From the IMG/VR virus record IMGVR_UViG_3300045806_000066, positions 1 through 62,339 of that record: a DNA stretch of 62,339 bases; one strand, written 5' to 3'. Positions 2,964-44,396 of this stretch are shown here, in pieces (the stretch's first letter is position 1; the number at the start of each line of letters is the position of its first letter). The stretch comes from a virus (Duplodnaviria > Caudoviricetes). Under the pieces are notes generated by a model that saw only the letters and a list, made by a program, of their open reading frames with translations, did not search any database and was not told the origin of the DNA. Both the position numbers and the translations under genes were made by a program.

Positions 2964-5900
2964 CTACCCTTCCAGTGCTCCTCTGCCAGAAAAGATTGGA
3001 CGGATGAACACGCACATATATTTTATGTCTGACCATATGTCTGGTTGACAACCATTTGTAAGGCGAACCCTCCATCTTTCATTCGTCTTCGGCGGCGTCA
3101 TGCGCGAGATTCCGATGGACTGATCGGGCTTGAGGTCTACCGGGCGCACCTTCAATTCCTTCGAGCTTCCCGATTCGTCCCAATCGTTCGCCATGTCGCG
3201 CCCGCCGAGAAACGATACCTGCAGCGGTCCGTTCCCGCGAGCGTTCAGGTTGAAACCGTGGATCTGGCATACCGACAGCATCCGGCCCTGGGAGGTCGTC
3301 TCGTACTGGTCGTCAATCCCTGCTCCGTTGTCGTTGTAGACGCCCGGAGTTACCGCATGTAGCCCGCCATCTGGCCCGCTCGATCCATAGATGAATTGCG
3401 AGACCTGCGCGCGTACCGGACCCTGATCGGTGCCCACGGCTCCCTCGTTCGGAATAGGAACGTCGGGGATGATGCGCTCAATGCGACCGGCCACGAAGGC
3501 GGCGATATCGTTGAATGAAAACTTACGGCAAGCCTCAATCGTGATCTCCTTGCTGGAGTAGCGCGAGAACATCAGAGGATTTTGCCAGCCCTCCTCGTAG
3601 TTGATGACGATCTCGCAATTCGGCACCGTACTCCCGCCAACCGGCACGCCGACGTGGACTTCTTTCTCCTCGTCGTCGATCGACACCCAGATAGTCTGCG
3701 CTGCGAGCCAGTTGATTGTGTTCCAGAACTTCGGAATTTCCTTGATGATAAGTTCCGGCTCGGTCTCGGTGTACATGTAGATTCCAGAGCGGTGAACGAA
3801 GATCATAAAGCTCTTGCAGACATCGGCAGCGCGAGGTCCGCATGGGCCTACACCGTGCCAACGTTCCACCACGTCCCACGAAGCAGGGTCGCCCGCGTTC
3901 GGGGTAATGACGAAGCCGCTCCTCTCCCGCAGCGCGAAGATGGTTTCTTTGTACTCCCTCACCGCAAATGTGCGCTGTCCGTCGCCTGCCCCAATCGGCA
4001 GCGGACTGGTGTCGCCGTAGTAACTCTCGCCATCAGCGGCGAGTGAAATCACGCAGCCCGTTTCGTATCCCGGCACCCCACACTGGAATACCCTTTGCGT
4101 GGTTGCGGAAAAATACGCACTTACGCATGGGTTTGGCTCGATCACTCGAAGCCGGTCGGTAATGTCGAGTCCCTGTGAGCCGATGAGATAGTCGTCCGTA
4201 AAGTTGAATTGCGCCGAGGTCGTGGTGTTGTCGTTGAGTACCGTCGAGGTCATCAAGATACCGTCGGACAACTGATTCTGTGCGATGACGTAGAACGGGC
4301 CTGCAGGCGTTCCCCCGGAGACAGTGATACCGACATACCGCTTGACCGTGTTCGATGGCCCGGTGGGAATCAGCGTCGCAACCAATACCGATTGCGTTAA
4401 GTACGTGATGCGGACGTAAACATCGAGGCCAGCCGGAAAATCGCCAGATACCGATTCTCGTGCCAAGGTGGGGCCAGTCGTCGGTGCAGCTACCACTCCC
4501 GCGGTGGAGGCAGCGGGAGGCGTGACACCAAGAGCTTCGCCGATGATGGTCATGGTCCCCGGTGTCACGGTGCCGTCGGTAGCGGTCACACATTGCACCG
4601 TGCCAACCAGAGCAAAGGCCGTGGGGAGCGGGGCCGGTGCGCCATGCGCCACACTTGCCTCGTAGACATTTGCGCCAGTAATCAGCGAGCCTTTATAGGT
4701 GACGGAAACCGAAACCGCATCGCCGAGGACCGTATTGGATATCACCGAGGCTGGGCCAGGCAAGGTCTCGTTGTTCGGGACCGTGCATGGCGAGTCGGCG
4801 ATGGCGTTGCGCACAATGCCGGAAATGGTGCCGATGTCGTTGACGAATGCCGTTGCCATATAGCGGACGCCGGAAGCGATGTTGCCCTGCATCTGCGCCG
4901 TGTTCACGGTTGGAGGTGGTACTCCAGTTGCCGATGCGTCGATGCCTGGGGTGTCGGTGTCCTGATAGGTGCCCACCAGTTTGTAAGCTGTGCTCGCTGG
5001 TGCCGCCGATCCGTGGGCCACGTCCGCCTCGTAAAGATTGACGCCAGTGAGCGCGATGCCGTTGGGAACGGAGATGGCGGCCTGGATCGCATCGCCCGCA
5101 GCGGTATTGCTGAATGTCGACGCTGCGCCCACGGTGGTCTCGCCATTCGGGTTGACGTAGGTCTCAAGAACGTACACGTCTCGCCCAGCGGGGAAAGCAC
5201 CGCCGCCTGGGAGCCGCGTGAGTACCGGGCCAACGGTCGGCGGCGATAGCAGGCCGGGGAGAGTTGAGGCAAACTGCGTGGTCGATTCGGCCCAAATTAC
5301 CGTGCCGTCGTTTACTGTTTCTGTAACAGACTGAGTGAGATAGGTGACGAGAACGTACACGTCGTAGGCTGCCGGGATGGTGCCGCCGAGCGGAATTCGA
5401 GTCAGCGTGGGAGCTGTGACGGGCGTCGGCGTCGCGCCGGCGGTACTGGCCGTTGGCGGCGGGTTTCCGATGGCATCCGTGGTGATGAGAAAAGTGTTGC
5501 CGGAGGCATAGATCGAGCCGAGGAGGTTGAACGCCGTGGTCGCCGGGGCCGCCGAGCCATGCGTGACTGCCGCGGCGTAGATGCGGGCGCCGCTGACCAG
5601 AGGATTCGCCCAAGTTGCCGCCACCACGATCGCATCGTCGAGCACGGTGTTGATGATCGAGGCGGCCGGGCCGGGCAGCGTCTCGCGGATTTGCGTCGGC
5701 CATTGCGGCTGCACAGCGCCGGTAATTCCGCCCTGGATGCACTGGTAGGTGTGGCCGGTCTGCTTTGCGATGGTCGTGCCGGTGGTCTGTCCGGGAAGAA
5801 TCTGCACGTAGGATGGTGTTACCACCTCGCCAGCCACGTAATTGTGATTTGCCAGCCATCCTGCGCCCACCGGTTTGAACCCGTAGGGATTCAGCGCCAG

Positions 5901-6350
5901 CGTCTTCAGGTTCAAGGTTGCCATCGCGGACGTAGGCGCGGTGAGGTCGGAGAAGGCGAGGAATCCGCAATTGAATCCCTGCGCGCCGATCATGTGCGAG
6001 GCAGACGGTAGAGTTACCAGCGTGCCGGCGATCGCAACCGCATCGCCGGAGCCAACCGGGGATTCCCGCTGGAGATTACCCTCAAGGTCGAAGAAGACCG
6101 GAATCTGGGTGTAGAGCTCGCCCGCAGCTTCGGGCGTGTATATCGCGCCGAGCAGTCCTGTGATGGGAGCTTTGGCGAGTCCCTGGATGGCGAGCTGGAT
6201 ACCGTAGCGCGTCTTGACGCTGGTCAGCGAGAACTTCTTGTTGCGGCATACGGCGGCCACGCCGATCGGCAGATTGTCCGGGCTGTCCTGATCGACCTGT
6301 CCGCAGAATCGGTTGAACTCGACCGGGGTCGCGCCTGAGAAGTTTGCCAT
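2964..6350 (-). CDS. Tail nozzle/tubular protein B-like protein with inserted repeat domains
   Basis: 1128 aa, beta-rich, propeller-like C-half (GVGPCGPRAA, FVHRSGIYMY), downstream of the adaptor. It has three internal ~110-aa repeats. Confidence 0.7.
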   Translation of the reverse strand: MANFSGATPVEFNRFCGQVDQDSPDNLPIGVAAVCRNKKFSLTSVKTRYGIQLAIQGLAKAPITGLLGAIYTPEAAGELYTQIPVFFDLEGNLQRESPVGSGDAVAIAGTLVTLPSASHMIGAQGFNCGFLAFSDLTAPTSAMATLNLKTLALNPYGFKPVGAGWLANHNYVAGEVVTPSYVQILPGQTTGTTIAKQTGHTYQCIQGGITGAVQPQWPTQIRETLPGPAASIINTVLDDAIVVAATWANPLVSGARIYAAAVTHGSAAPATTAFNLLGSIYASGNTFLITTDAIGNPPPTASTAGATPTPVTAPTLTRIPLGGTIPAAYDVYVLVTYLTQSVTETVNDGTVIWAESTTQFASTLPGLLSPPTVGPVLTRLPGGGAFPAGRDVYVLETYVNPNGETTVGAASTFSNTAAGDAIQAAISVPNGIALTGVNLYEADVAHGSAAPASTAYKLVGTYQDTDTPGIDASATGVPPPTVNTAQMQGNIASGVRYMATAFVNDIGTISGIVRNAIADSPCTVPNNETLPGPASVISNTVLGDAVSVSVTYKGSLITGANVYEASVAHGAPAPLPTAFALVGTVQCVTATDGTVTPGTMTIIGEALGVTPPAASTAGVVAAPTTGPTLARESVSGDFPAGLDVYVRITYLTQSVLVATLIPTGPSNTVKRYVGITVSGGTPAGPFYVIAQNQLSDGILMTSTVLNDNTTTSAQFNFTDDYLIGSQGLDITDRLRVIEPNPCVSAYFSATTQRVFQCGVPGYETGCVISLAADGESYYGDTSPLPIGAGDGQRTFAVREYKETIFALRERSGFVITPNAGDPASWDVVERWHGVGPCGPRAADVCKSFMIFVHRSGIYMYTETEPELIIKEIPKFWNTINWLAAQTIWVSIDDEEKEVHVGVPVGGSTVPNCEIVINYEEGWQNPLMFSRYSSKEITIEACRKFSFNDIAAFVAGRIERIIPDVPIPNEGAVGTDQGPVRAQVSQFIYGSSGPDGGLHAVTPGVYNDNGAGIDDQYETTSQGRMLSVCQIHGFNLNARGNGPLQVSFLGGRDMANDWDESGSSKELKVRPVDLKPDQSIGISRMTPPKTNERWRVRLTNGCQPDIWSDIKYMCVFIRPIFSGRGALEG

Positions 6351-6363
6351 GTTACTCCAAAGG

Positions 6364-6386
6364 AAAAGGCCGCCGGTTGGCGACCT
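6364..6386 (-). terminator. Terminator-like hairpin, near copy of 12898-12922
   Basis: AGGTCGCC-AACC-GGCGGCCT-TTT on the minus strand. Confidence 0.55.
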
Positions 6387-6429
6387 GTGATCGTGCTGAA
6401 ATTGAAGGGCCCACCCGAAGGTGAGCCCT

Positions 6430-6507
6430 CTATGGGATCGGGACTCGAACCCGAACGACCTGTGATCCGGCCTCTTGGCCTGCGTCTACCAATTCCGCCA
6501 TCCCATA
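6430..6507 (-). ncRNA. tRNA-like RNA (Leu-type D arm, long variable arm) with a truncated anticodon arm
   Basis: TATGGGA-TG-GCG GAATTGGTAGA CGC-A-GGCC AAGA GGCC-G-GATC ACA GGTC-GT-TCGGG TTCGAGT CCCGA-TCCCATA-G. Perfect 7-bp acceptor and 5-bp T stems; no encoded CCA. Confidence 0.8.
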
Positions 6508-6553
6508 CTTGCGGGCAGGCCATGCGAAAACCTGCCCGCAACTGCTTTGTATC

Positions 6554-6925
6554 CTACGCCCCTTTGGGCGCAATCATCTTCAAAGTTACGGTGCCGCCGG
6601 AGATCGCCGCCGGGTACGCGCCGCTGCCCAGTTCCACGCCTTCCGAGGTCCAGAACTTGAGCGCAAAGCCGGAGAGCGTAGCCGCCTGAATCAGATCAGC
6701 CGTGTAGCCGCCGATGGATGCCTGCTCGACGCTGGGCGGGACCTGGGGAACTTGACCGGGGAGCGACGGGGAGAGCGCGTTCGGGTCTTTGATGTTGGAA
6801 GCAACCAGCGAGCAGGGATCGCCGCCGATGCCGGTGGTGTAGTTTCCCGACATGGTTGCGGCAATGTAGGTTTCCAGCGAGTTGACCGCGTTGACTTGGC
6901 GAAGGACTTTCAGGGCGACGGACAT
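6554..6925 (-). CDS. Small beta-rich virion protein (decoration or tail accessory)
   Basis: 123 aa from MSVALKV, with AGGAG upstream, in the structural operon. Confidence 0.55.
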   Translation of the reverse strand: MSVALKVLRQVNAVNSLETYIAATMSGNYTTGIGGDPCSLVASNIKDPNALSPSLPGQVPQVPPSVEQASIGGYTADLIQAATLSGFALKFWTSEGVELGSGAYPAAISGGTVTLKMIAPKGA

Positions 6926-6942
6926 AGCATTTCTCCTTGAGA

Positions 6943-7620
6943 TTACCGCCGGCCGTTGAGTCTGCCTGCGCGGAAAGTGGTGGATTGCTGTTCGCGGACG
7001 AGTTGATCGGCCACGCGGTTGAGAGCACTGGTTTCGAGCGCCCCGTAGGATTGTACCCATTCCGGATTGCCGCGCTCGACGGCCGCCAGCGCCGCGGCAC
7101 CGAAGGCGAGGACGTGGCCCATATCGGGATGCACCAGAATCCAGTCATCGTCTTTCAGTAGCGGGGGAGGATTGAACTCGCCTTTCACCTGCAGGTCGAT
7201 GGCGATTCCGAACGGCGTGATGAAGACCACGTTTGACCGCCATTCAAATGACGCCTGAGAGCATCCCAAGCCATTCGGCTGGATCGGCAGGAGGTCAGGC
7301 AAGTCCTCCACGCGCGCAATCGTCTGGTACTGGTTCTCGGGTGCCCCGGCTGGTTTCCATTTCAACCGGAGCGGATTGGTGAGGCCCAGCAAGGGACCGG
7401 CAGCGGTTCTCTGCTGGGCTGTCAGGTCGGTTGTGCCAATGGGGAGATTCGGGAGAGTAATCACCTTCGTCTCGAACGGGCTGCACGTTCCCTTGAGCGT
7501 GGAAATCTCAGCTTCGTAGGCCTGGTTTATGAACGGCAGCAGGAAAGCGTTTGTGAGACTGTCCTGGTCGGGATCGGACAGCAGCCCGGCAATTCTCCCC
7601 TTCAACTCATTGACGTTCAT
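6943..7620 (-). CDS. Head-tail adaptor (tail tubular protein A-like)
   Basis: N-terminal helix pattern (ELKGRIAGLLSDP...FINQAY) and C-terminal P..GHVLAFGA, directly upstream of the nozzle gene. Confidence 0.65.
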   Translation of the reverse strand: MNVNELKGRIAGLLSDPDQDSLTNAFLLPFINQAYEAEISTLKGTCSPFETKVITLPNLPIGTTDLTAQQRTAAGPLLGLTNPLRLKWKPAGAPENQYQTIARVEDLPDLLPIQPNGLGCSQASFEWRSNVVFITPFGIAIDLQVKGEFNPPPLLKDDDWILVHPDMGHVLAFGAAALAAVERGNPEWVQSYGALETSALNRVADQLVREQQSTTFRAGRLNGRR

Positions 7621-9802: not shown

Positions 9803-11101
9803 TTAATTGGCGAGCGATCCAGGGATATTCAATCCAAAGATTACACCCGAGGCCCAGGAGTTCCGAGAGCCATAGTTGACCGCATCGTAAAAATACGCAT
9901 CGTTTTGCGTGGTGTGGAAGTTGCCGGAGATGCGCGGCCAGTACATGCCGTTGAGCGGACCGGGAAGCATCTGCGGCCCCTTGTGGAAGCGGCACCGCAC
10001 CAGAACCTTCTGGTCGATGAAGTACACCTTGTCGATCGCGGCCACGGAGTCCAGAACGCACTCGAAGCCGGCAATGTTCTTCGGGCTGTTGGGCGAGGGT
10101 ACGCCGTCGAAGCTCGAAGCCTTGCCGTTGCTCAGGGTGTTCATCTGGATAGCGAAGCCGTTGGCTTCCCATGCATACCACTGCGCGGGATGGGTGTACC
10201 AGAAGTTCTTGGCCGCCTCGGACGTGAAGGTTTCCACGCCGCGCGCCTGCTGCATACGCACCAAGAACGATTGCACGGAGCCCAGGGTCAGCGGGGCGCC
10301 GTTGGCGTTGAATGCCGGGCTCTGGGTATAGCTCAGGGCGCGGTTCATGCCGTACAGTTCGCCGGTCGCCGAGGGATTGATGATGTACTGCAGTCCCTGG
10401 AAGAACAGCGGAGTGCCGGCGGCCACGCCGTTGACGAAGATACCGTCGCCCGCCACGGTTCCGGCCGGGACTGCATCGAGGGTGATGGTGTCGGTCGCGC
10501 CCGCGGACACGGAGAGCTTGTCCTGGACGAAGGCCGAGCCGCGCAGGTTGTAGTTCGTGTCCATGACCTGAATGGTGTCGTGCGCGTCGATCAGCCGGGC
10601 GCCAAAGGAGCTGGTCGCCAGGGTAACCGGGTTCGCGCCGCCGCCCGCGTAGGCCGCATTGACCGTTGCGATCTGGCCGGTGTTGGAGCCCTGCAGAAGC
10701 ATGTTGCGCTTCTTCGCCATCTTCTTCTGCATGTCGTTGATGGCGCGGTCCACCGGGTTGACGATGGAAACGCTTGCGCCGGATTCGCCGATGCGCTTGG
10801 CGAGGTCGGTGAAGCTGGTTCCCACGATCAGTTCGACGGGGGTCATGCGGCCCTGGTCGTAGCTGGCTCCCAGGCCGGCCGAGTACGCGCCGCCGTCGGA
10901 GTTGAAGGCGCCGAACGAGCCGCCCATTTCCGTCTGCAGTGGCATACGGTAGGTGAGGAGCGAGGACTCGTCTTCCTTGCCCATCTGCGAAAACCGCTTG
11001 TCGAGGCCGGTTTCCACGTTTTCCAGAAGGTCAATCTCGCGGTTGATGGTTTCGAGCATCAGCGATTCGTTCTGCGCTGCACTTCCAAAATTAACTGGCA
11101 T
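9803..11101 (-). CDS. Major capsid protein (HK97 fold inferred)
   Basis: 432 aa after portal and scaffold, strong codon bias, GLQYII and ELYGMNR motifs, GAGG RBS, followed by a GC hairpin. Confidence 0.85.
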   Translation of the reverse strand: MPVNFGSAAQNESLMLETINREIDLLENVETGLDKRFSQMGKEDESSLLTYRMPLQTEMGGSFGAFNSDGGAYSAGLGASYDQGRMTPVELIVGTSFTDLAKRIGESGASVSIVNPVDRAINDMQKKMAKKRNMLLQGSNTGQIATVNAAYAGGGANPVTLATSSFGARLIDAHDTIQVMDTNYNLRGSAFVQDKLSVSAGATDTITLDAVPAGTVAGDGIFVNGVAAGTPLFFQGLQYIINPSATGELYGMNRALSYTQSPAFNANGAPLTLGSVQSFLVRMQQARGVETFTSEAAKNFWYTHPAQWYAWEANGFAIQMNTLSNGKASSFDGVPSPNSPKNIAGFECVLDSVAAIDKVYFIDQKVLVRCRFHKGPQMLPGPLNGMYWPRISGNFHTTQNDAYFYDAVNYGSRNSWASGVIFGLNIPGSLAN

Positions 11102-30036: not shown

Positions 30037-30771
30037 ATGAGAACGCCCACGATCTTCTACCACTTTTCCGGCGCTGCTCTCCGTGATGGTTCACCGCTTC
30101 CGAAGATTGGCGAGTGGCTCGAACTGCCAGCGAACATCAAAATCAAGGCCTGCCCAAGCAAGACCGACATCCGTAACGGATTCGGCGGCCTGCACGCATC
30201 TCCAGATGCTTACGACGCCCTGCAATATGCGCCGGGATCACTGCTTCACCGCGTCGAGTTGGATGGCGAGGTTGTATCCCACGGCTCGCCCATCGACAAG
30301 TTCGCAGCTCGCCGCCGCAAGATCGTTGCGACCATCGACGCCAAGGATTTGCTTTGGGAGCACGCCCGCAAGTGCGCCCTATCCGTGATCCATCTTTGGG
30401 ATGCTCCCGAGGTCGTCAGGCAATACCTCGCCACAGGAGATAACTCATTAAGGGACGCTGCCAGGGCCGCTGCCAGGGACGCTGCCGATGCCGCTGCCTG
30501 GGCCGCTGCCGATGCCGCTGCCTGGGACGCTGCCTGGGCCGCTGCCGATGCCGCTGCCGATGCCGCTGCCTGGGCCGCTGCCGATGCCGCTGCCTGGGCC
30601 GCTGCCAGGGCCGCTGCCAGGGACGCTGCCGATGCCGCTGCCGATGCCGCTGCCGATGCCGCTGCCTGGGCCGCTGCCGATGCCGCTGCCTGGGCCGCTG
30701 CCATGGCCGCTCAACGGAAGACGCTCAACAACCTCGTGGATGTGGCGTTCGCAAAGCAGGTTACCGGATGA
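30037..30771 (+). CDS. Phage protein with AAW/AAR/DAA tandem repeats
   Basis: GLHAS...ALQYAPG N-terminal domain, LWDAPEVVRQYLATGD, then an Ala-rich repeat. Confidence 0.8.
   Translation: MRTPTIFYHFSGAALRDGSPLPKIGEWLELPANIKIKACPSKTDIRNGFGGLHASPDAYDALQYAPGSLLHRVELDGEVVSHGSPIDKFAARRRKIVATIDAKDLLWEHARKCALSVIHLWDAPEVVRQYLATGDNSLRDAARAAARDAADAAAWAAADAAAWDAAWAAADAAADAAAWAAADAAAWAAARAAARDAADAAADAAADAAAWAAADAAAWAAAMAAQRKTLNNLVDVAFAKQVTG
30451..30710 (+). repeat. Coding 12-bp tandem repeat G(C/A)CGCTGCC+(TGG/AGG/GAT), about 21 units
   Basis: Directly visible in the sequence. Confidence 0.9.
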
Positions 30772-34208: not shown

Positions 34209-35030
34209 TTATTCGCATAGGTTGTAGACGCTCATGCAGCTACGGGCCGGGAACATGGGCAACTGATCTTCATCCACGCTCTCGATGTAGCGGAAAATAT
34301 CATTGGCCCAAGGGAAAGTCGCCCCGCTCGCCTCATCTTTCCCCGTGTGGAATCGCGCAGGGCAATCGTCGGGGCTCCAAAAGGATCTGCCAACTTTTGA
34401 TTCCAAGTCAAGAATCCGCTTCTTGAGAAAGTTCCATGCATCGGGATAGCTGCGGATCGCCCGAAGTTCCCGCATGTTTACCATGATGCACGGAAAGCAC
34501 CCGACACGACCGCACCCCATGAGGTAGAGCGGGTTCGGTGCCACTCCATGCTTCTTGGCAATCTCAAAGCACTGCTCCGCCGTCCAGCGCAGTAATGGCC
34601 GTTCGATCCAGTACCCGCCCCCATCGTCAACCCACTGCCGTTCATTCATTTTGGCTCGGCTGGCGGATTCATCGGCGCGGATTCCTTGATAACTGCGGAT
34701 GTCGCCATCGTCGAGTGATTCAAAGTAGCGATGGAGCGGGAAACTCTTCAACTCCTGAGTGCAGAACCGAGCGCGAGCGGAAGGGACACGTTTACGCTTG
34801 ACGCTCATGTCCTCAAAACCTTCGTACTTGTCGCTGGTCACCGTCACCAACGAGCCACAGAGGATGGAATGATTGATTTCCTCGATGTAGGCGTAAGTGA
34901 TCGGGTGCTCCCATTTTGTATCGCAAAAAACTGGAGTCCAGTCCACACCAGGCACGCCGATGTTCTCCCTCATCCAGAGCATGAGAGCTGTTGAATCCTT
35001 GCCGCCCGAAAAACAACCGATGTGTTTCAT
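34209..35030 (-). CDS. PAPS reductase-family (PP-loop) protein
   Basis: FSGGKDS, FCDTKWE, RFCTQELK, GIRADES..R and RVGCFPC. Confidence 0.9.
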   Translation of the reverse strand: MKHIGCFSGGKDSTALMLWMRENIGVPGVDWTPVFCDTKWEHPITYAYIEEINHSILCGSLVTVTSDKYEGFEDMSVKRKRVPSARARFCTQELKSFPLHRYFESLDDGDIRSYQGIRADESASRAKMNERQWVDDGGGYWIERPLLRWTAEQCFEIAKKHGVAPNPLYLMGCGRVGCFPCIMVNMRELRAIRSYPDAWNFLKKRILDLESKVGRSFWSPDDCPARFHTGKDEASGATFPWANDIFRYIESVDEDQLPMFPARSCMSVYNLCE

Positions 35031-35437
35031 TCCGGCACCGCCGCTCTCACCGCGATCTCTGTCCTCGGATTCAACCAGTCGCGCCGTACCCGCATGATCC
35101 AATCGCTCACCGCCGCATCGCTGTGGATCACGCCAGCCTCTTTCAGCCCATCCCCGACGCACTTCCAGAGGTTGTCACCGTCGCCCTTTTGCCCCTTGCC
35201 GAAGTAGACCGTCACCTCAAGCTCATAGTGCAACTTGCCGAGTTGCGTGGTCGTCAAACCAGCGCACATAGACTGGCGACGAGCGAACATAGCCACGGCC
35301 GCCTTGTACGCTTTGGCCTCATCAGAGACGAACGTTACCCCGCGCCTGGTCCGCGTCTTGTAGTGATTGACGCTGGGCGGCGTGAGTGGAATCACAAAGC
35401 ACACCTCTTGCACCGCTGCCGCCGTGCCCGCGTTCAT
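35027..35437 (-). CDS. rusA: RusA-like Holliday junction resolvase
   Basis: PPSVNHY...DGDNLWKCVGDGL..AGVIHSD..V. Confidence 0.85.
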   Translation of the reverse strand: MNAGTAAAVQEVCFVIPLTPPSVNHYKTRTRRGVTFVSDEAKAYKAAVAMFARRQSMCAGLTTTQLGKLHYELEVTVYFGKGQKGDGDNLWKCVGDGLKEAGVIHSDAAVSDWIMRVRRDWLNPRTEIAVRAAVPE

Positions 35438-36467: not shown

Positions 36468-37115
36468 TCACTGGATCTGTCCCGCAGGTGCATTCGTCTT
36501 CCGCCCGAACGTCTTCCGCACCCCTTGCGCGCGCGGGTCTTCGTCCTTGGCTACGGCGTCAGCTACGGCCTCGTCGATGGCCTGCGCTGCTTCGGCGTCT
36601 TCCAGCTTGGGGGCCTCAAGCGGCTGGGGCAACTCGGTTTCCTCGGTTTCGTCCTCAGAGGCTCCCTGAGCGTCCGCTGTGGGCTCAGTGGAGGATTCCA
36701 TCGTTCCAGAGGCTTCCGGCTGCACAGCGTTCGACGGTGCCCCGGCTGCGCTGGCTTCCGGCGCTGGGTCAGGGAAGAGATTGGCCTGCATCTCGTCGCG
36801 AGTCATCTGCTCGGTCTTCACAAACTCGCCTGTGTCCATCCGGTAGATCGACTTGAATCCCACGCTCGGCTCGTGGAGGCTGACCGTGCAGTCGATCATC
36901 CGGTTCTCGCCCTTGCGCTTGACCTGCCCGGCCAGGGTGGACTTCTCGAAGTCGATGCGGTCGAGTTCCTCTTTGAACGCCTTGGCCGTCGTCGCCTTAC
37001 GGTCCTCAACCTCGGTGTACTTCGTGGTGGCGTCGCTGAGTTCCTGGGCCTTCGCCTCAAACTCGTCAACGGTGTACGTAGTGAACAGGCACAGCTTGAT
37101 TTCTGTTGCTCGCAT
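36468..37115 (-). CDS. Hypothetical protein with an acidic C-terminus
   Basis: AAGGAG RBS and RMDTGEFV motif. Confidence 0.7.
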   Translation of the reverse strand: MRATEIKLCLFTTYTVDEFEAKAQELSDATTKYTEVEDRKATTAKAFKEELDRIDFEKSTLAGQVKRKGENRMIDCTVSLHEPSVGFKSIYRMDTGEFVKTEQMTRDEMQANLFPDPAPEASAAGAPSNAVQPEASGTMESSTEPTADAQGASEDETEETELPQPLEAPKLEDAEAAQAIDEAVADAVAKDEDPRAQGVRKTFGRKTNAPAGQIQ

Positions 37116-38127: not shown

Positions 38128-39486
38128 TTACCCCCTTGGCCGGTAATCCGGCACGTACTCTAACCGCTTCTTATCGAACATGGCCGCTATCGGGCCCTTC
38201 TCTCCTGCGCGCATTTTCATCACGAGGATGTTGTCATTCCCGGTAAAAGCTCCGTCCGATCCTTCCTCTCGGTGTAGCCCGAGAGCCACATTCGCCGCCG
38301 CTTCCACGTCGCCGGATTCCTTGAAACTAATCATGGTCGGCATCTTGTTGATGTCGCCACCTTGAGGCCGTGCGAAATGGTGCAGGACGATCATCGCCAC
38401 AGGCTCCTCGTCGGCAAACCTGCGCAACGTCTCTATGGCGAAGTTCATGCGGTGCCGTTCATCTCCACCTGGACAACAGAACGAAAATGCCTTCAGGTGA
38501 TCGACCACGATCAAGTGCTCCCGCTCGTCTGCCATAAGTTGCCGTTTGTGCCGCTCCACCATCAGTCGCATCTTTGAGTAGAGTTTGGCCGGGGTGAGTC
38601 CTTTCGGCTTGTGAATCTGCATCGGCCATTGCGAGATAAGTGCTCCAGCCTCTTCGATGGCTAGCTTATCCTCTGGTGTGCGGTAACGCGGATCTCTGAG
38701 TTTCATCGGATGGACGCCCGACACGCTCGCCAAGTTGCGGCGCATCAGTTCGCTCTTACCCATCTCCAGCGAGAAGAAATCTACACGGTCGCCGCGCTTC
38801 GCGTTCTCGCGGCATATCTGCATCGCATAGGCTGTCTTACCACGCTCAGGCATGGCGCCGATGACCATGATCTCGTGTCGCCTGAGTCCCATAATCGAAC
38901 TGTCAAGGTCTGGAATACAGAGGGTGAGCCCAAGTAACTCGCGCTTTGATTCCGCCTCGACGTTCATCTCGTGCAGAGTAGTCATCACGTCATCGGCGAT
39001 GGTTGTTTCCTTCTCGGCGGTCTGAGCTTCGACGGCAACCGCATCCTGAATGATCTTGGAAATCAACTCGTCGCCAGTGATACTGGATTCCATCCCGGCC
39101 AGTTGCGCACGCTCGGCGAGACGAATCGCCGCTCGTACTTTGGCGCGGTCCTTCACAATCGCCATGTAATGTTTTGGCGGGTAGATCGTATTCAGCCGGT
39201 CGGCCATATCCCAGAGGTAGGCCGCCCCGCCGGAAGCCTCCAGAGTCTTATGCCGCGACATCCATTCCATCACCGTCGCCTGGTCGATCTTCTGCCCCGC
39301 CGCAATCACGTCGGCCATCGCGCAGAAGATGCGCGCGTTGCGGCCGTCGTCAAAATCCTCAGCGGTGAGCACTGCCGATATCTGACCCCATACCTCTCCA
39401 TCAAGCAACACCTTCCCGAGAAGCGAACGTTCAGCCTCGTGAGCTGCCGGCATCGTCGCGCTGAATGCTTCGGCGTGGGCGCTCAT
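38128..39486 (-). CDS. dnaB: Replicative helicase, DnaB family
   Basis: EAERSLLG N-terminal domain, Walker A GAMPERGKT, FSLEM, IVVDHL, ESGDVE and KMRAGE. Confidence 0.93.
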   Translation of the reverse strand: MSAHAEAFSATMPAAHEAERSLLGKVLLDGEVWGQISAVLTAEDFDDGRNARIFCAMADVIAAGQKIDQATVMEWMSRHKTLEASGGAAYLWDMADRLNTIYPPKHYMAIVKDRAKVRAAIRLAERAQLAGMESSITGDELISKIIQDAVAVEAQTAEKETTIADDVMTTLHEMNVEAESKRELLGLTLCIPDLDSSIMGLRRHEIMVIGAMPERGKTAYAMQICRENAKRGDRVDFFSLEMGKSELMRRNLASVSGVHPMKLRDPRYRTPEDKLAIEEAGALISQWPMQIHKPKGLTPAKLYSKMRLMVERHKRQLMADEREHLIVVDHLKAFSFCCPGGDERHRMNFAIETLRRFADEEPVAMIVLHHFARPQGGDINKMPTMISFKESGDVEAAANVALGLHREEGSDGAFTGNDNILVMKMRAGEKGPIAAMFDKKRLEYVPDYRPRG

Positions 39487-43373: not shown

Positions 43374-44396
43374 CTATCTCTCCTTGGCAAACCACGCCCG
43401 GCAATATGCGGAGCGTTCGGTCGGCTTGGAACAGGTTTCAATGATGCGTTGAATTACCTCATTGGCATCCTGTGCGCGCCCCTTGACGAAGGCGGACAGT
43501 TCGGCAAACGCCGTTTTGTAGTCGGTAGTGACGGAAGGCGTTGAGCGGACAATTCCAATCTTGCCGAGTTCGGTCTTGCTTCCGTCGGAATCGCCAAGTA
43601 GCGCGAACAGGTGATTCTTTTCCATCTGCTCAGCCGCTTCCGCTTCCTTCTTGCGAGCCTGCGCCATCTTCAACAGGAGCGCGTGCTCGCTGATATCCGG
43701 CGTACAGGGCACCAGGTTGCCGTTGCCGATGGAGAACTTGCGGGCCAGGTATCTGCCGTAGGCTTCGCTCTCGTCGATCGGTGGCGGCACCTGAGTGAGA
43801 ACGTGGTCGTTCCAGAAGGCACGGCCAGCCTCAATGAGTGCCTTCACCAGCCCGTCATCGCGCTCCACGCGGTAGGACTGGAGCGAGTTACCGGCGAACA
43901 GGACGGCGATATTCCACGCCTTGTATCCGGTCACGGCCATGTACCACATGACCTGAATCAAATACTGCTCAGGAACTTGGTCAGTGCCAGGCGTTCCCCA
44001 CTCGTCCGACTTGCGGCCGGAACACTTACACTCCCACCCGCAAAGAAACTGCGGCATCAGCCCGTCCGGGGTGCCTAGCATCCAAGGTTCCTCGCCGATG
44101 ACGATGGTCTGATCCTTCCACGGCTTCGAGCGCGGAAACAGAGCGGCAATATCCTTGGGCGCCGTCACGTCCACATCGAAGCGAATGGCGTACCGCTCGC
44201 GGATCAGCGGCTCAAGCGCCGAACCCCAAAATAGCAACTCCTTGTCCAATTCAGGAAATCCTCCCGGGTTGATCTTGCCCTCGTAGATCTCGATTGGCCG
44301 CTTCCAGGGTGACAGGCCGACGATGGCCGCAAGGTCTGTACCACCTAGACCATCGGCCCGCGCGGTCATAAACGATTCTTGCTCTTCGTTAATCAT
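43374..44396 (-). CDS. YqaJ/lambda-exonuclease-family recombination nuclease
   Basis: R..GLGGTD.AAIVGLSPWK, WG..LEP, TPDG, ECK and Y.IQV.WYM.VTG. Confidence 0.92.
   Translation of the reverse strand: MINEEQESFMTARADGLGGTDLAAIVGLSPWKRPIEIYEGKINPGGFPELDKELLFWGSALEPLIRERYAIRFDVDVTAPKDIAALFPRSKPWKDQTIVIGEEPWMLGTPDGLMPQFLCGWECKCSGRKSDEWGTPGTDQVPEQYLIQVMWYMAVTGYKAWNIAVLFAGNSLQSYRVERDDGLVKALIEAGRAFWNDHVLTQVPPPIDESEAYGRYLARKFSIGNGNLVPCTPDISEHALLLKMAQARKKEAEAAEQMEKNHLFALLGDSDGSKTELGKIGIVRSTPSVTTDYKTAFAELSAFVKGRAQDANEVIQRIIETCSKPTERSAYCRAWFAKER

What the first reader, a model, noticed from the sequence alone, without database searches (positions are those of the whole stretch)
6405..6507. tRNA-Leu-like RNA whose anticodon arm is reduced to a 4-bp stem with a 4-nt loop
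The acceptor, D, variable and T arms are intact and fully paired, but the anticodon arm is GGCC-AAGA-GGCC. The CAAGA may be a relic of a CAA loop. The discriminator is G, there is no CCA, and an 11-bp cUUCGg hairpin follows immediately. Perfect stems argue against simple decay. It cannot decode canonically. Possible roles are a nuclease-resistant tRNA mimic or decoy against anticodon nucleases, a synthetase ligand (LeuRS and SerRS largely ignore the anticodon), or an RNase P/Z processing site in the late mRNA just before the nozzle gene.
Basis: partly seen in the sequence, partly recalled or inferred. Interest (0 to 1): 0.75.

Follow-up and report, generated by a model that had tools for sequence, protein, structure and literature searches.

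The report
Anticodon-less tRNA-Leu relic in phage
One strain of a soil phage carries a leucine-tRNA look-alike that lacks a working anticodon loop; it is most likely a recently disabled accessory tRNA gene lying in a spot between two virion genes where sister strains carry other inserts.

Summary
A tRNA-Leu covariance model built without it hits the window only there (59 bits, E about 4e-13). All 23 cloverleaf pairs are standard or G-U. The anticodon arm is GGCC-AAGA-GGCC.

It is not an assembly error. Contigs of two other DNA runs and one RNA-library run carry the arm unchanged.

It is not conserved:
- It is absent from the closest relative (75% identity in the downstream protein).
- No credible match was found in 119 further relatives' loci.
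- In two metagenome contigs with 93-97% identical flanks, window 6430-6545 is replaced by an unrelated 320-nt segment. That segment holds a different defective tRNA look-alike.
- In five prophage relatives, the gap before the same gene holds Acido-Lenti-1 RNA motifs.

The short arm can be explained by one contiguous 5-nt deletion from a normal Leu(NAA) arm. The perfect stems are therefore not evidence of selection. U1-A72, G73 and the missing CCA also depart from working Leu tRNAs.

Best reading (0.55): a recently disabled accessory tRNA gene, probably still cut by RNase P. A processing or decoy role is not excluded and could not be tested here. Interest is modest.

The parts
6554..6925 (-). 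Upstream gene, 123 aa plus stop (TAG at 6556-6554), no known family. The 168-aa ORF of the mechanical list starts too early.
   Evidence: BLASTP to the L002 homologue: 67% identity, starting at M46 of the 168-aa ORF. No Pfam or PHROG family. No credible PDB match.
6430..6545 (-). Strain-variable cassette: the leader hairpin plus the tRNA look-alike. It is replaced by an unrelated 320-nt segment in contigs L066 and L067 and in run X8.
   Evidence: blastn of L066/L067 to the window breaks at 6429 and 6546; alignment A3. X8 contigs match up to 6429 and from 6550, then run on unlike. The two cassettes show no similarity (local score 16 against shuffle mean 16.8).
6509..6541 (-). Leader hairpin just 5' of the tRNA look-alike: 11 perfect pairs, 13 with two G-U pairs, and no U run behind it.
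   Evidence: Inverted repeat I1; MFE fold.
6430..6507 (-). tRNA-Leu look-alike, 78 nt. Acceptor, D, variable and T arms are intact; U1-A72; discriminator G at 6430; no CCA.
   Evidence: ARAGORN. Leu model R1: 59 bits, E about 4e-13, the only hit in the window. 23 of 23 pairs standard or G-U. D arm identical to an annotated E. coli tRNA-Leu over 21 nt. Best long phage matches are annotated tRNA-Leu genes.
6469..6480 (-). Shortened anticodon arm GGCC-AAGA-GGCC: 4 bp and a 4-nt loop, 5 nt shorter than a normal arm.
   Evidence: Sequence. R1 alignment shows 4+1 deleted model positions. Unchanged in contigs of X4, X5 and X12.
6406..6429 (-). Hairpin T1: 10 bp with a UUCG loop. It is conserved in the sister strain, where a U run follows it. 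It starts at the first base after the discriminator.
   Evidence: Sequence and fold. Identical in L066/L067 apart from the tail.
6456..6467 (-). First copy of a 12-nt direct repeat (GATCACAGGTCG on the minus strand). It forms the variable arm.
   Evidence: the repeat finder D2. These are the only two exact copies in the genome. A repeat this long occurred in 32 of 5000 Markov-simulated regions.
6381..6392 (-). Second copy of the 12-nt direct repeat. It lies in the conserved flank, overlaps the 5' strand of terminator T2, and is also present in L066/L067.
6357..6386 (-). Terminator-like hairpin T2 (8 pairs, loop AACC, then UUUCCUUUGG). It runs into the GGAG ribosome-binding site of the next gene.
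   Evidence: The only terminator-like site found in 5900-7200.
2964..6350 (-). Downstream gene, 1128 aa: a large virion protein in the nozzle position, after an SU10-type adaptor gene at 6943-7620.
   Evidence: PF24175 on the 225-aa neighbour. phrog_3287 'virion structural protein', E 3.6e-4. 103 homologues. No PDB sequence match.

Best explanation
The element is a non-decoding derivative of a type-II tRNA-Leu gene (anticodon NAA type). It is carried as strain-specific cargo in a variable intergenic slot at the end of the head/adaptor gene block, just before two terminator-like hairpins and the nozzle-position gene.

The most likely history is as follows. An accessory phage tRNA-Leu gene was acquired in this slot. 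It was then disabled by loss of five consecutive nucleotides: the 5' member of the last anticodon-stem pair plus loop positions 32-35. The four outer stem pairs remained and closed a 4-nt loop.

The RNA cannot read codons. With G73 instead of A73 and no CCA it is unlikely to be charged as Leu.

Its acceptor/T-arm stack and its D/T-loop elbow are intact. If the late transcript runs through it, host RNase P should still cut at its 5' end. That cut would leave the leader hairpin on the upstream mRNA. This would be a by-product, not necessarily a selected function.

Shown: homology to tRNA-Leu, the lesion, its presence in several samples, the lack of conservation, and the variable slot. Inferred: the deletion history, RNase P cleavage, and the lack of charging.
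For: (1) Leu-tRNA homology. Model R1, built without the element, scores 59 bits and gives the only hit in the window. The D arm matches annotated tRNA-Leu genes.

(2) The arm is 5 nt short. The retained letters fit one contiguous deletion from a 5-bp/7-nt NAA-type arm (sequence; inference).

(3) Other departures from the 10 reference Leu tRNAs. These have A at the discriminator in 10 of 10 and G1 in 9 of 10. The element has G73, U1-A72 and no CCA.

(4) No conservation.
- It is absent from the closest relative, L002, at 75% protein identity.
- ARAGORN finds 0 of 59 viral and 0 of 60 genome loci with any tRNA within 2.5 kb of the homologous gene.
- R1 finds no credible hit in 121 loci. The best hit, at 21.5 bits, lies inside a 388-aa ORF.
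- Exact-pattern scans for the arm or the variable/T part found no tRNA: 0 in IMG/VR, 0 in JGI metagenomes, and 0 of 26 genome hits were tRNA.

(5) The slot is variable.
- L066, L067 and X8 have flanks 93-97% identical, but an unrelated 320-nt cassette in place of the element.
- That cassette holds another defective tRNA look-alike: Rfam tRNA 40.2 bits, a 5-nt T loop and no GG in the D loop.
- 21 of 92 relatives have a gap over 150 nt before this gene.
- 5 of the 17 long-gap loci scanned hold Acido-Lenti-1 motifs in that gap.

(6) Relatives carry single tRNA genes sporadically and elsewhere. 5 of 45 viral records have one, 8-32 kb from this gene. This fits tRNAs being gained and lost as accessory genes.

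(7) A rough codon count shows no special need. UUR makes up 12.5% of Leu codons in 20 phage ORFs against 22% in 14 host ORFs.
Against: - Apart from the anticodon arm, every stem and every conserved tertiary position (U8, A14, G18G19, the UUCGA T loop) is intact. This fits a very recent lesion but also fits selection on the fold.
- The sister strain carries a second, unrelated, also non-canonical tRNA look-alike at the same place. Two aberrant tRNA shapes in one slot could mean that a tRNA shape is what is wanted there.
- No ancestor or relative with an intact loop was found, so the deletion history is inferred and not observed.
- The model's own alignment places two gaps (4+1), not one.
- The strains that hold the element are nearly identical, so neither decay nor covariation can be measured.
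- The 12-nt direct repeat shared by the variable arm and the conserved flank (32 of 5000 simulations) is not explained by this reading.
Confidence: 0.55

Rival explanations
1. It is a selected processing and stability module, a form of 'tRNA punctuation'. The tRNA shape is kept so that RNase P, and a 3' endonuclease at the T1 hairpin, cut the late polycistronic RNA here. The cut would separate the abundant head/adaptor mRNA, which would then end in the leader hairpin, from the nozzle-gene mRNA. The anticodon is irrelevant to such a role and so was free to shrink.
For: - The acceptor/T-arm stack and the elbow are intact.
- The position is mRNA, then hairpin, then tRNA shape, then hairpins. This layout matches E. 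coli secG-leuU, where RNase P separates the mRNA from tRNA-Leu2 (PMC2241853; abstract and section headings seen).
- The sister strain has another tRNA shape in the same slot, also with an intact 7-bp acceptor and 5-bp T stem.
- In an RNA library, one contig runs from inside the downstream gene through the element to 6555, and the next contig starts at 6567 with about twice the depth. This is weak evidence: contigs only, one run, and DNA carry-over is not excluded.
Against: - The closest relative and all other relatives examined lack any tRNA shape here, so the operon works without one.
- The median gap before the gene is about 35 nt.
- The sister strain's look-alike has a damaged elbow (5-nt T loop, no G18G19), which RNase P normally uses. 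The two elements therefore do not share one preserved feature set.
- A hairpin directly after the discriminator may hinder RNase P. In PMC2241853 (abstract), terminators inhibit RNase P processing until they are removed.
Confidence: 0.2
2. It is a tRNA-shaped decoy or ligand. An abundant late RNA would bind a host tRNA-directed defence nuclease or toxin, or a synthetase or modification enzyme. It could not be cut or used because the anticodon loop is missing. The variable slot would then be a small anti-defence RNA locus whose content differs between strains.
For: - The slot is strain-variable and holds two different non-canonical tRNA look-alikes. Accessory, fast-changing loci are typical of counter-defence genes (general knowledge).
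- It lies at the end of a block of highly expressed late genes (major head gene at 9803-11101).
- Phage tRNAs that counter tRNA-cleaving defences are documented (PMC11464382, seen in a search listing only).
Against: - There is no conservation, no covariation and no second copy anywhere searched.
- The known counter-defence tRNAs are working tRNAs with altered loops, not loop-less ones.
- The phage has no tRNA-repair or CCA-adding gene (RtcB and PolyA_pol families absent).
- A decoy must be abundant, and abundance is not shown.
- G73 and U1-A72 make LeuRS binding doubtful (E. coli identity rules, recalled).
Confidence: 0.1
3. It is an integration-site relic. The tRNA-like sequence would be an attP or an att scar from site-specific recombination in a tRNA-Leu anticodon loop.
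For: - Relatives of this phage occur as prophages inside Mb-size Acidobacteriaceae contigs.
- One host genome (locus L134) has its tRNA-Leu(CAA) gene interrupted right after the anticodon loop, next to integrase-like sequence.
- One relative holds a partial tRNA at model positions 8-63.
Against: - The phage has no tyrosine integrase or serine recombinase family match, and its genome has direct terminal repeats.
- Both halves of the tRNA are present.
- Host tRNA-Leu shares only the generic D arm: 92% over 25 nt in 5 of 5 genomes, with the rest different. An att site would be identical to the host over its core.
Confidence: 0.03
4. It is a chance cloverleaf or an assembly artefact.
For: ARAGORN also makes a false call in this window: 36838-36906, inside a minus-strand ORF and without Rfam support.
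Against: R1 scores 59 bits, E about 4e-13, and this is the only hit in the window. Identical sequence is found in contigs of three further runs.
Confidence: 0.01

Closest known systems
Phage-borne accessory tRNA genes and tRNA pseudogenes, e.g. tRNA-Leu(UAA) of Pseudomonas phage LUZ100 and tRNA-Leu(CAA) of Mycobacterium phage Phabba
   Same: Type-II Leu cloverleaf. 73-77% identity over about 80-88% of the element, and alignable arm by arm. Sporadic, strain-specific presence in a phage genome.
   Different: The anticodon arm is 5 nt shorter. It has U1-A72 and G73, and no CCA. It lies inside a late structural operon and not in a tRNA or early region. It scores below every Rfam tRNA threshold.
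E. coli secG-leuU co-transcript (Mohanty and Kushner 2007, PMC2241853; abstract and section headings seen)
   Same: A protein-coding mRNA is followed by a tRNA-Leu unit and then a Rho-independent terminator. In that system RNase P separates the mRNA from the tRNA, and the terminator must first be removed.
   Different: leuU is a working tRNA with CCA, and its terminator lies after an A/U-rich spacer. Here the tRNA shape is non-decoding, the hairpin starts at the first base after the discriminator, and a further gene follows. No processing has been shown here.
tRNA-like processing signals with reduced anticodon arms: mascRNA at the MALAT1 3' end, the tRNA-like units of murine gammaherpesvirus 68, and mitochondrial tRNA punctuation
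   Same: A tRNA-shaped RNA that is not used for decoding. It has an intact acceptor/T domain, sits within a longer transcript, and is followed by hairpins.
   Different: Those are eukaryotic or organellar systems with demonstrated RNase P/Z cleavage and conservation. Here neither cleavage nor conservation is shown.
Counter-defence phage tRNAs, e.g. the T5 tRNA that neutralises PARIS (PMC11464382; search listing only)
   Same: A phage-encoded tRNA-type RNA in an accessory locus.
   Different: Those are functional tRNAs that replace cleaved host tRNAs. This RNA has no anticodon loop and cannot replace anything.
   Same: tRNA-derived genes with intact acceptor and T arms and truncated anticodon loops.
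   Different: That note reports many paired substitutions, meaning the fold is kept by selection. Here no variation exists to test this. The host, the context and the tRNA type also differ.

Membership tests
Functional bacterial/phage tRNA-Leu (Rfam RF00005, type II) | Cloverleaf with 7-bp acceptor, D arm with G18G19, long variable arm, and 5-bp T stem with a 7-nt UUCRANY loop | tested here: met
   23 of 23 pairs are standard or G-U. Full-length alignment to Leu model R1, 59 bits.
Functional bacterial/phage tRNA-Leu (Rfam RF00005, type II) | 5-bp anticodon stem and 7-nt loop with U33 and an anticodon | tested here: not met
   The arm is GGCC-AAGA-GGCC, with five model positions deleted. ARAGORN's 'Pro(agg)' call needs a stem with two mismatches (and the sequence).
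Functional bacterial/phage tRNA-Leu (Rfam RF00005, type II) | Reaches the curated Rfam score | tested here: not met
   No match at gathering score. RF00005 gives none at E<=10. The best clan member is tRNA-Sec at 19.5 bits against a threshold of 47.
Functional bacterial/phage tRNA-Leu (Rfam RF00005, type II) | Discriminator A73 (major LeuRS identity element in E. coli; recalled) and a 3' CCA, encoded or added | tested here: not met
   The element has G at position 73 and no CCA. 10 of 10 reference Leu tRNAs have A73, and 7 of the 10 aligned stretches include CCA. CCA addition after transcription is not testable here.
Functional bacterial/phage tRNA-Leu (Rfam RF00005, type II) | Aminoacylation and use in translation | not testable with these tools
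   Needs a charging assay.
tRNA-like RNase P/Z processing signal | Intact acceptor/T-arm stack and T-loop/D-loop elbow | tested here: met
   Sequence and pairing.
tRNA-like RNase P/Z processing signal | Lies within a longer transcript | tested here: inconclusive
   An RNA-library contig spans 6158-6555. These are contigs only, from one run, and DNA carry-over is not excluded.
tRNA-like RNase P/Z processing signal | Cleavage at the mature 5' and 3' ends | not testable with these tools
   Needs raw read ends or an in vitro RNase P assay.
tRNA-like RNase P/Z processing signal | Conserved at the same place in related genomes | tested here: not met
   Absent from L002 and from the other relatives' loci. 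Replaced in L066/L067.
attP or tRNA fragment of an integrating element | A recombinase in the genome, and identity to a host tRNA over the core | tested here: not met
   PF00589 and PF00239 are absent. Host tRNA-Leu shares only 25 nt of the D arm at 92%.
Counter-defence phage tRNA | A working tRNA whose loop resists a host nuclease | tested here: not met
   There is no 7-nt loop.

The most novel reading that the evidence does not exclude
The gap before the nozzle-position gene is a strain-variable locus for non-coding RNA. Phages of Acidobacteriaceae would keep interchangeable tRNA-shaped RNAs there that no longer decode. Examples are a Leu shape without an anticodon loop in this strain and an Arg-like shape with a collapsed elbow in the sister strain. 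Such RNAs would be made in large amounts from the end of the late head operon. They would act as punctuation for RNase P or as uncleavable decoys for host tRNA-directed defences.
Probability: 0.15. Interest if true: 0.7.

Novelty: new variant of a known kind. Interest (0 to 1): 0.35.

Why it matters
If it is only a disabled tRNA gene, it is a clean natural example of three things. It shows how phage accessory tRNAs die, by one small deletion. It shows that they sit in swap-prone slots. It also shows that gene finders mislabel them: ARAGORN calls it tRNA-Pro and Rfam misses it.

If the tRNA shape is kept for its own sake, it would be a bacterial-virus counterpart of tRNA punctuation or of tRNA-like decoys. 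It would also give a testable handle on how late-operon mRNAs are cut and balanced in an uncultivated group of soil phages.

The slot itself may be of wider use for studying mobile non-coding elements in Acidobacteria phages. It holds two different tRNA look-alikes in sister strains and Acido-Lenti-1 inverted pairs in prophage relatives.

Tried and rejected
**Searches for homologues**
- blastn of the 203-nt intergenic region against 50,697 phage records: no match.
- Exact-pattern scans from the element:
  - IMG/VR: 0 hits.
  - JGI metagenomes: 0 hits.
  - GTDB genomes: 0 hits. A further scan gave 26 hits, and 0 of the 26 were tRNA; all lie in coding-like sequence without a D arm.
- Flank patterns in IMG/VR: 0 hits.
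- The search for related loci with the adaptor protein: 5 pattern hits, none confirmed.

**Structure and detection checks**
- Relaxed ARAGORN does not find the L066 look-alike, so ARAGORN blanks alone are not proof. RF00005 and model R1 were therefore added.
- The R1 hit in L053 (21.5 bits) was rejected because it lies inside a 388-aa ORF.
- The second ARAGORN 'tRNA-Pro(cgg)' at 36838-36906 was rejected. It lies inside a minus-strand ORF and has no Rfam support.
- Promoter scan of 5900-7200: 0 sigma-70-like sites, against 0.2 expected. This says little about Acidobacteria or phage promoters.

**Comparisons of the two cassettes**
- The window cassette against the L066 cassette shows no similarity beyond chance.
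- The L066 cassette against 5 host genomes and the phage collection gave only short weak matches.

**Sequencing-run evidence**
- Only contigs were laid. They cannot show RNA ends, strand or level.
- Uncovered parts in X8 (6430-6549) count only because the same contigs run on into unlike sequence, and because L066/L067 show what is there.

**Other**
- PDB sequence searches for the downstream and upstream proteins gave nothing usable. 'Nozzle' therefore stays a positional label.
- Earlier notes of this scan hold nothing for this genome or this sequence.
- Literature searches found no paper describing a phage tRNA look-alike with a 4-nt anticodon loop. These were four keyword searches of open-access text and do not prove that none exists. 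Supplementary files were not consulted.
Full report
**What is there**

The window is a complete 62,339-bp virus record with direct terminal repeats. The finding lies on the minus strand, in the 203-nt gap between two late genes.

The upstream gene is a 123-aa ORF (6925-6554). Its true start was fixed by 67% identity to the homologue in the closest relative. Further upstream lie:
- an SU10-type adaptor gene, 6943-7620 (PF24175, 33.4 bits against a cut-off of 27);
- a weak major-head-protein match, 9803-11101 (phrog_14242).

The downstream gene is a 1128-aa virion protein (6350-2964). I call it 'nozzle-position' only. It has a weak PHROG structural match and no PDB sequence match.

Read on the minus strand, the gap holds in order:
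- the stop codon;
- a leader hairpin, 6541-6509;
- the 78-nt tRNA look-alike, 6507-6430;
- a cUUCGg hairpin T1, 6429-6406, starting at the first base after the discriminator;
- a terminator-like hairpin T2 with a U-rich tail, 6386-6357;
- GGAG and the ATG.

**Is it more than chance**

ARAGORN reports the element but forces it into 'tRNA-Pro(agg)'. Rfam does not report it at gathering score. RF00005 gives nothing at E<=10. The best clan member is tRNA-Sec at 19.5 bits.

I therefore built a tRNA-Leu covariance model from 10 other Leu tRNAs: 7 from phage records and 3 from Acidobacteriaceae genomes. The element itself was left out. The model hits the window only at 6507-6427, with 59 bits and E about 4e-13 from a shortened calibration.

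Further support:
- All 23 proposed cloverleaf pairs are standard or G-U. The cloverleaf lies 1.4 kcal/mol above the MFE.
- The D arm is identical over 21 nt to an annotated E. coli tRNA-Leu.
- The longest phage matches are annotated tRNA-Leu genes, in LUZ100 and Phabba.

The anticodon arm is GGCC-AAGA-GGCC, five model positions short.

It is not an assembly error. Contigs from two further DNA runs and from one RNA library carry the arm unchanged:
- X4: 0 differences over 6299-6850.
- X12: 1 difference, at 6553, over 6460-6679.
- X5 (RNA library): 0 differences over 6158-6555.

**Who carries it**

The downstream protein has 103 homologues. Of 60 loci in GTDB genomes, 57 have titles naming Acidobacteriota, and 54 of those name Acidobacteriaceae. 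Many lie in Mb-size contigs. The hosts are therefore very probably Acidobacteriaceae, and some relatives are prophages.

The element itself was found in no relative:
- The closest one (L002, 75% protein identity) has a 100-nt gap with only a terminator-like hairpin and no tRNA.
- ARAGORN finds a tRNA in 0 of 59 viral loci and 0 of 60 genome loci within 2.5 kb of the gene.
- The Leu model finds no credible hit in 121 loci. Its best hit, at 21.5 bits, lies inside a 388-aa ORF.
- RF00005 over 45 whole viral records finds a tRNA above cut-off in 5 (Met, Arg, Trp, Thr and one partial). All lie 8-32 kb away from this gene.
- Exact-pattern scans for the arm, or for the variable/T part, gave no tRNA in IMG/VR, JGI metagenomes or GTDB genomes.
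- Host tRNA-Leu genes share only the generic D arm: 92% over 25 nt in 5 of 5 genomes (sequences). The element is therefore not a recent copy of a host gene.

**The slot is variable**

Laying contigs showed a strain in run X8 that is 95-99% alike. It matches up to 6429 and again from 6550, and in between its contigs run on into unlike sequence.

Two JGI metagenome contigs, L066 and L067, found with a flank pattern, show what is there. Their flanks are 93-97% identical to the window. Window 6430-6545 is replaced by 320 nt of unrelated sequence. The local alignment score between the two cassettes is 16, against a shuffle mean of 16.8.

That cassette holds another tRNA look-alike, at L066:1834-1903, which scores 40.2 bits on Rfam tRNA. 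Its features are:
- a 7-bp acceptor stem;
- a normal anticodon arm, with loop AUGCGAU;
- a D loop without GG;
- a T loop of only 5 nt.

ARAGORN misses it even when relaxed.

So the right-hand boundary of the variable segment falls exactly after the discriminator of the window's element. T1, T2 and the ribosome-binding site are common to both strains.

More widely, the gap before this gene has a median of about 35 nt in 92 relatives but exceeds 150 nt in 21 of them. In 5 of the 17 long-gap loci scanned, the gap holds Acido-Lenti-1 RNA motifs (RF01687, 49-55 bits). In three of those loci the motifs form an inverted pair. In L100 they are the ends of long inverted repeats. This junction is a place where extra non-coding DNA is repeatedly inserted.

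**How the short arm can have arisen**

The last five letters of the arm (AGGCC) are what the 3' strand of a 5-bp stem would be if its 5' strand had been GGCC plus U. The three letters before them (AAG) fit loop positions 36-38 of an NAA-anticodon Leu tRNA with A37. All five NAA-type reference tRNAs have A37.

One contiguous loss of five nucleotides, position 31 plus loop positions 32-35, therefore turns a normal arm into exactly the observed hairpin. This is an inference from the sequence. Either way the ancestor was an NAA-type Leu tRNA.

It follows that 'perfect stems' are expected after a single recent event. They do not argue for selection.

Three further features depart from the reference Leu tRNAs: U1-A72 (G1 in 9 of 10 references), G73 (A in 10 of 10) and no CCA. 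A73 is the main LeuRS identity element in E. coli (recalled, not tested here). Charging as Leu is therefore doubtful.

A rough codon count gives no sign that the phage needs such a tRNA. UUR makes up 12.5% of Leu codons in 20 phage ORFs against 22% in 14 host ORFs, from crude ORF sets.

**Most likely mechanism**

The best reading (0.55) is a strain-specific accessory tRNA-Leu gene that was disabled by a small deletion and has not yet decayed further.

RNase P needs only the acceptor/T-arm stack and the elbow (established knowledge), and both are intact. A late transcript that runs through the element would therefore probably still be cut at U6507. That would leave the leader hairpin at the 3' end of the upstream mRNA.

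The layout of mRNA, tRNA-Leu and terminator is that of E. coli secG-leuU. There, RNase P separates the two parts and the terminator must first be removed (PMC2241853; abstract and headings seen).

The only expression evidence is weak. In one RNA library a contig runs from inside the downstream gene through T2, T1, the element and the leader hairpin to 6555. The next contig starts at 6567 with about twice the depth, 15.8 against 8.4. Contigs cannot show ends or strand, and DNA carry-over is not excluded.

**Rivals**

- Selected processing module (0.2). This is favoured by the second tRNA shape in the sister strain. It is weakened by the absence of any tRNA shape in all other relatives, and by the fact that the two look-alikes keep opposite halves of the tRNA intact: the elbow here, the anticodon arm there.
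- Decoy or ligand (0.1). This fits a fast-changing accessory slot, but it has no direct support. The phage has no RtcB or CCA-adding family gene.
- att relic (0.03). This is contradicted by the lack of any integrase or resolvase family match and by the lack of identity to host tRNA-Leu.
- Chance or artefact. Excluded.

**Unexplained**

A 12-nt direct repeat (GATCACAGGTCG on the minus strand) forms the variable arm (6467-6456). It recurs 75 nt downstream in the conserved flank (6392-6381), where it overlaps T2. These are the only two exact copies in the genome. A repeat this long arose in 32 of 5000 simulated regions. The second copy is also present in the strain that lacks the element, so the repeat is not a simple insertion duplication.

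**Verdict**

The identity 'tRNA-Leu look-alike that cannot decode' is confirmed. The argument for function from perfect stems is not.

The element is a singleton in a swap-prone slot and is most simply a freshly disabled accessory tRNA gene. What keeps it from being fully ordinary is the slot, which holds two unrelated aberrant tRNA shapes in sister strains and mobile RNA motifs in relatives. Interest 0.35; a new variant of a known kind.

Nothing comparable could be measured here.

Noticed in passing
L066:1834-1903 (also in L067); sister-strain contigs: A second aberrant tRNA look-alike in the same slot. It scores 40.2 bits on Rfam tRNA and has a 7-bp acceptor, a normal anticodon arm (loop AUGCGAU, GCG = Arg), a D loop without GG and a 5-nt T loop. 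ARAGORN misses it. It sits in a 320-nt cassette with no similarity to the window's cassette.
   Followed up: partly
L076, L078, L083, L085, L100, about 1970-2480 (the gap before the nozzle-position gene): Eight matches to Acido-Lenti-1 RNA (RF01687, 49-55 bits) in five Acidobacteriaceae prophage relatives. In three loci they form an inverted pair 150-180 nt apart. In L100 they are the ends of long inverted repeats, like a small mobile element inserted in the same slot.
   Followed up: partly
window 6456-6467 and 6381-6392: An exact 12-nt direct repeat shared by the variable arm of the element and the conserved flank at terminator T2. These are the only two copies in the genome. A repeat this long arose in 32 of 5000 simulations. 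Its meaning is unknown.
   Followed up: partly
window 51310-62289 (-): A giant 3659-aa ORF with Strawberry-notch-type helicase domains (AAA_34 at 290 bits, Helicase_C_4 at 249 bits) and a 2H phosphoesterase / 2'-5' RNA ligase superfamily domain at residues 746-867 (39.5 bits).
   Followed up: no
window 36838-36906 (+): ARAGORN's second call, 'tRNA-Pro(cgg)', lies inside a minus-strand ORF (36468-37115) and has no Rfam support. It is probably a false positive.
   Followed up: yes
L134:1498-1545 (an Acidobacteriaceae genome): The host tRNA-Leu(CAA) gene is intact in 4 of the 5 genomes examined. In this one it breaks off just after the anticodon loop and is followed by sequence that encodes integrase-like text. 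This looks like an element integrated in the anticodon-loop region.
   Followed up: no
L132:1500-1555 (- strand; relative G037, a record with direct terminal repeats): A partial tRNA match (RF00005, 35.8 bits, model positions 8-63, CAU-type loop, 3' end with CCA) that is not called by ARAGORN. It may be an att-site fragment.
   Followed up: no
window about 30450-30625: A dense cluster of short direct repeats with units of 12-24 nt (GCTGCC...), seen while counting local repeats.
   Followed up: no
window 34209-35162 (-): An ORF with a PAPS reductase domain (PF01507, 74.8 bits) in the replication-gene region, near a DnaB-type helicase (38128-39486) and a YqaJ-type recombinase (43374-44396).
   Followed up: no
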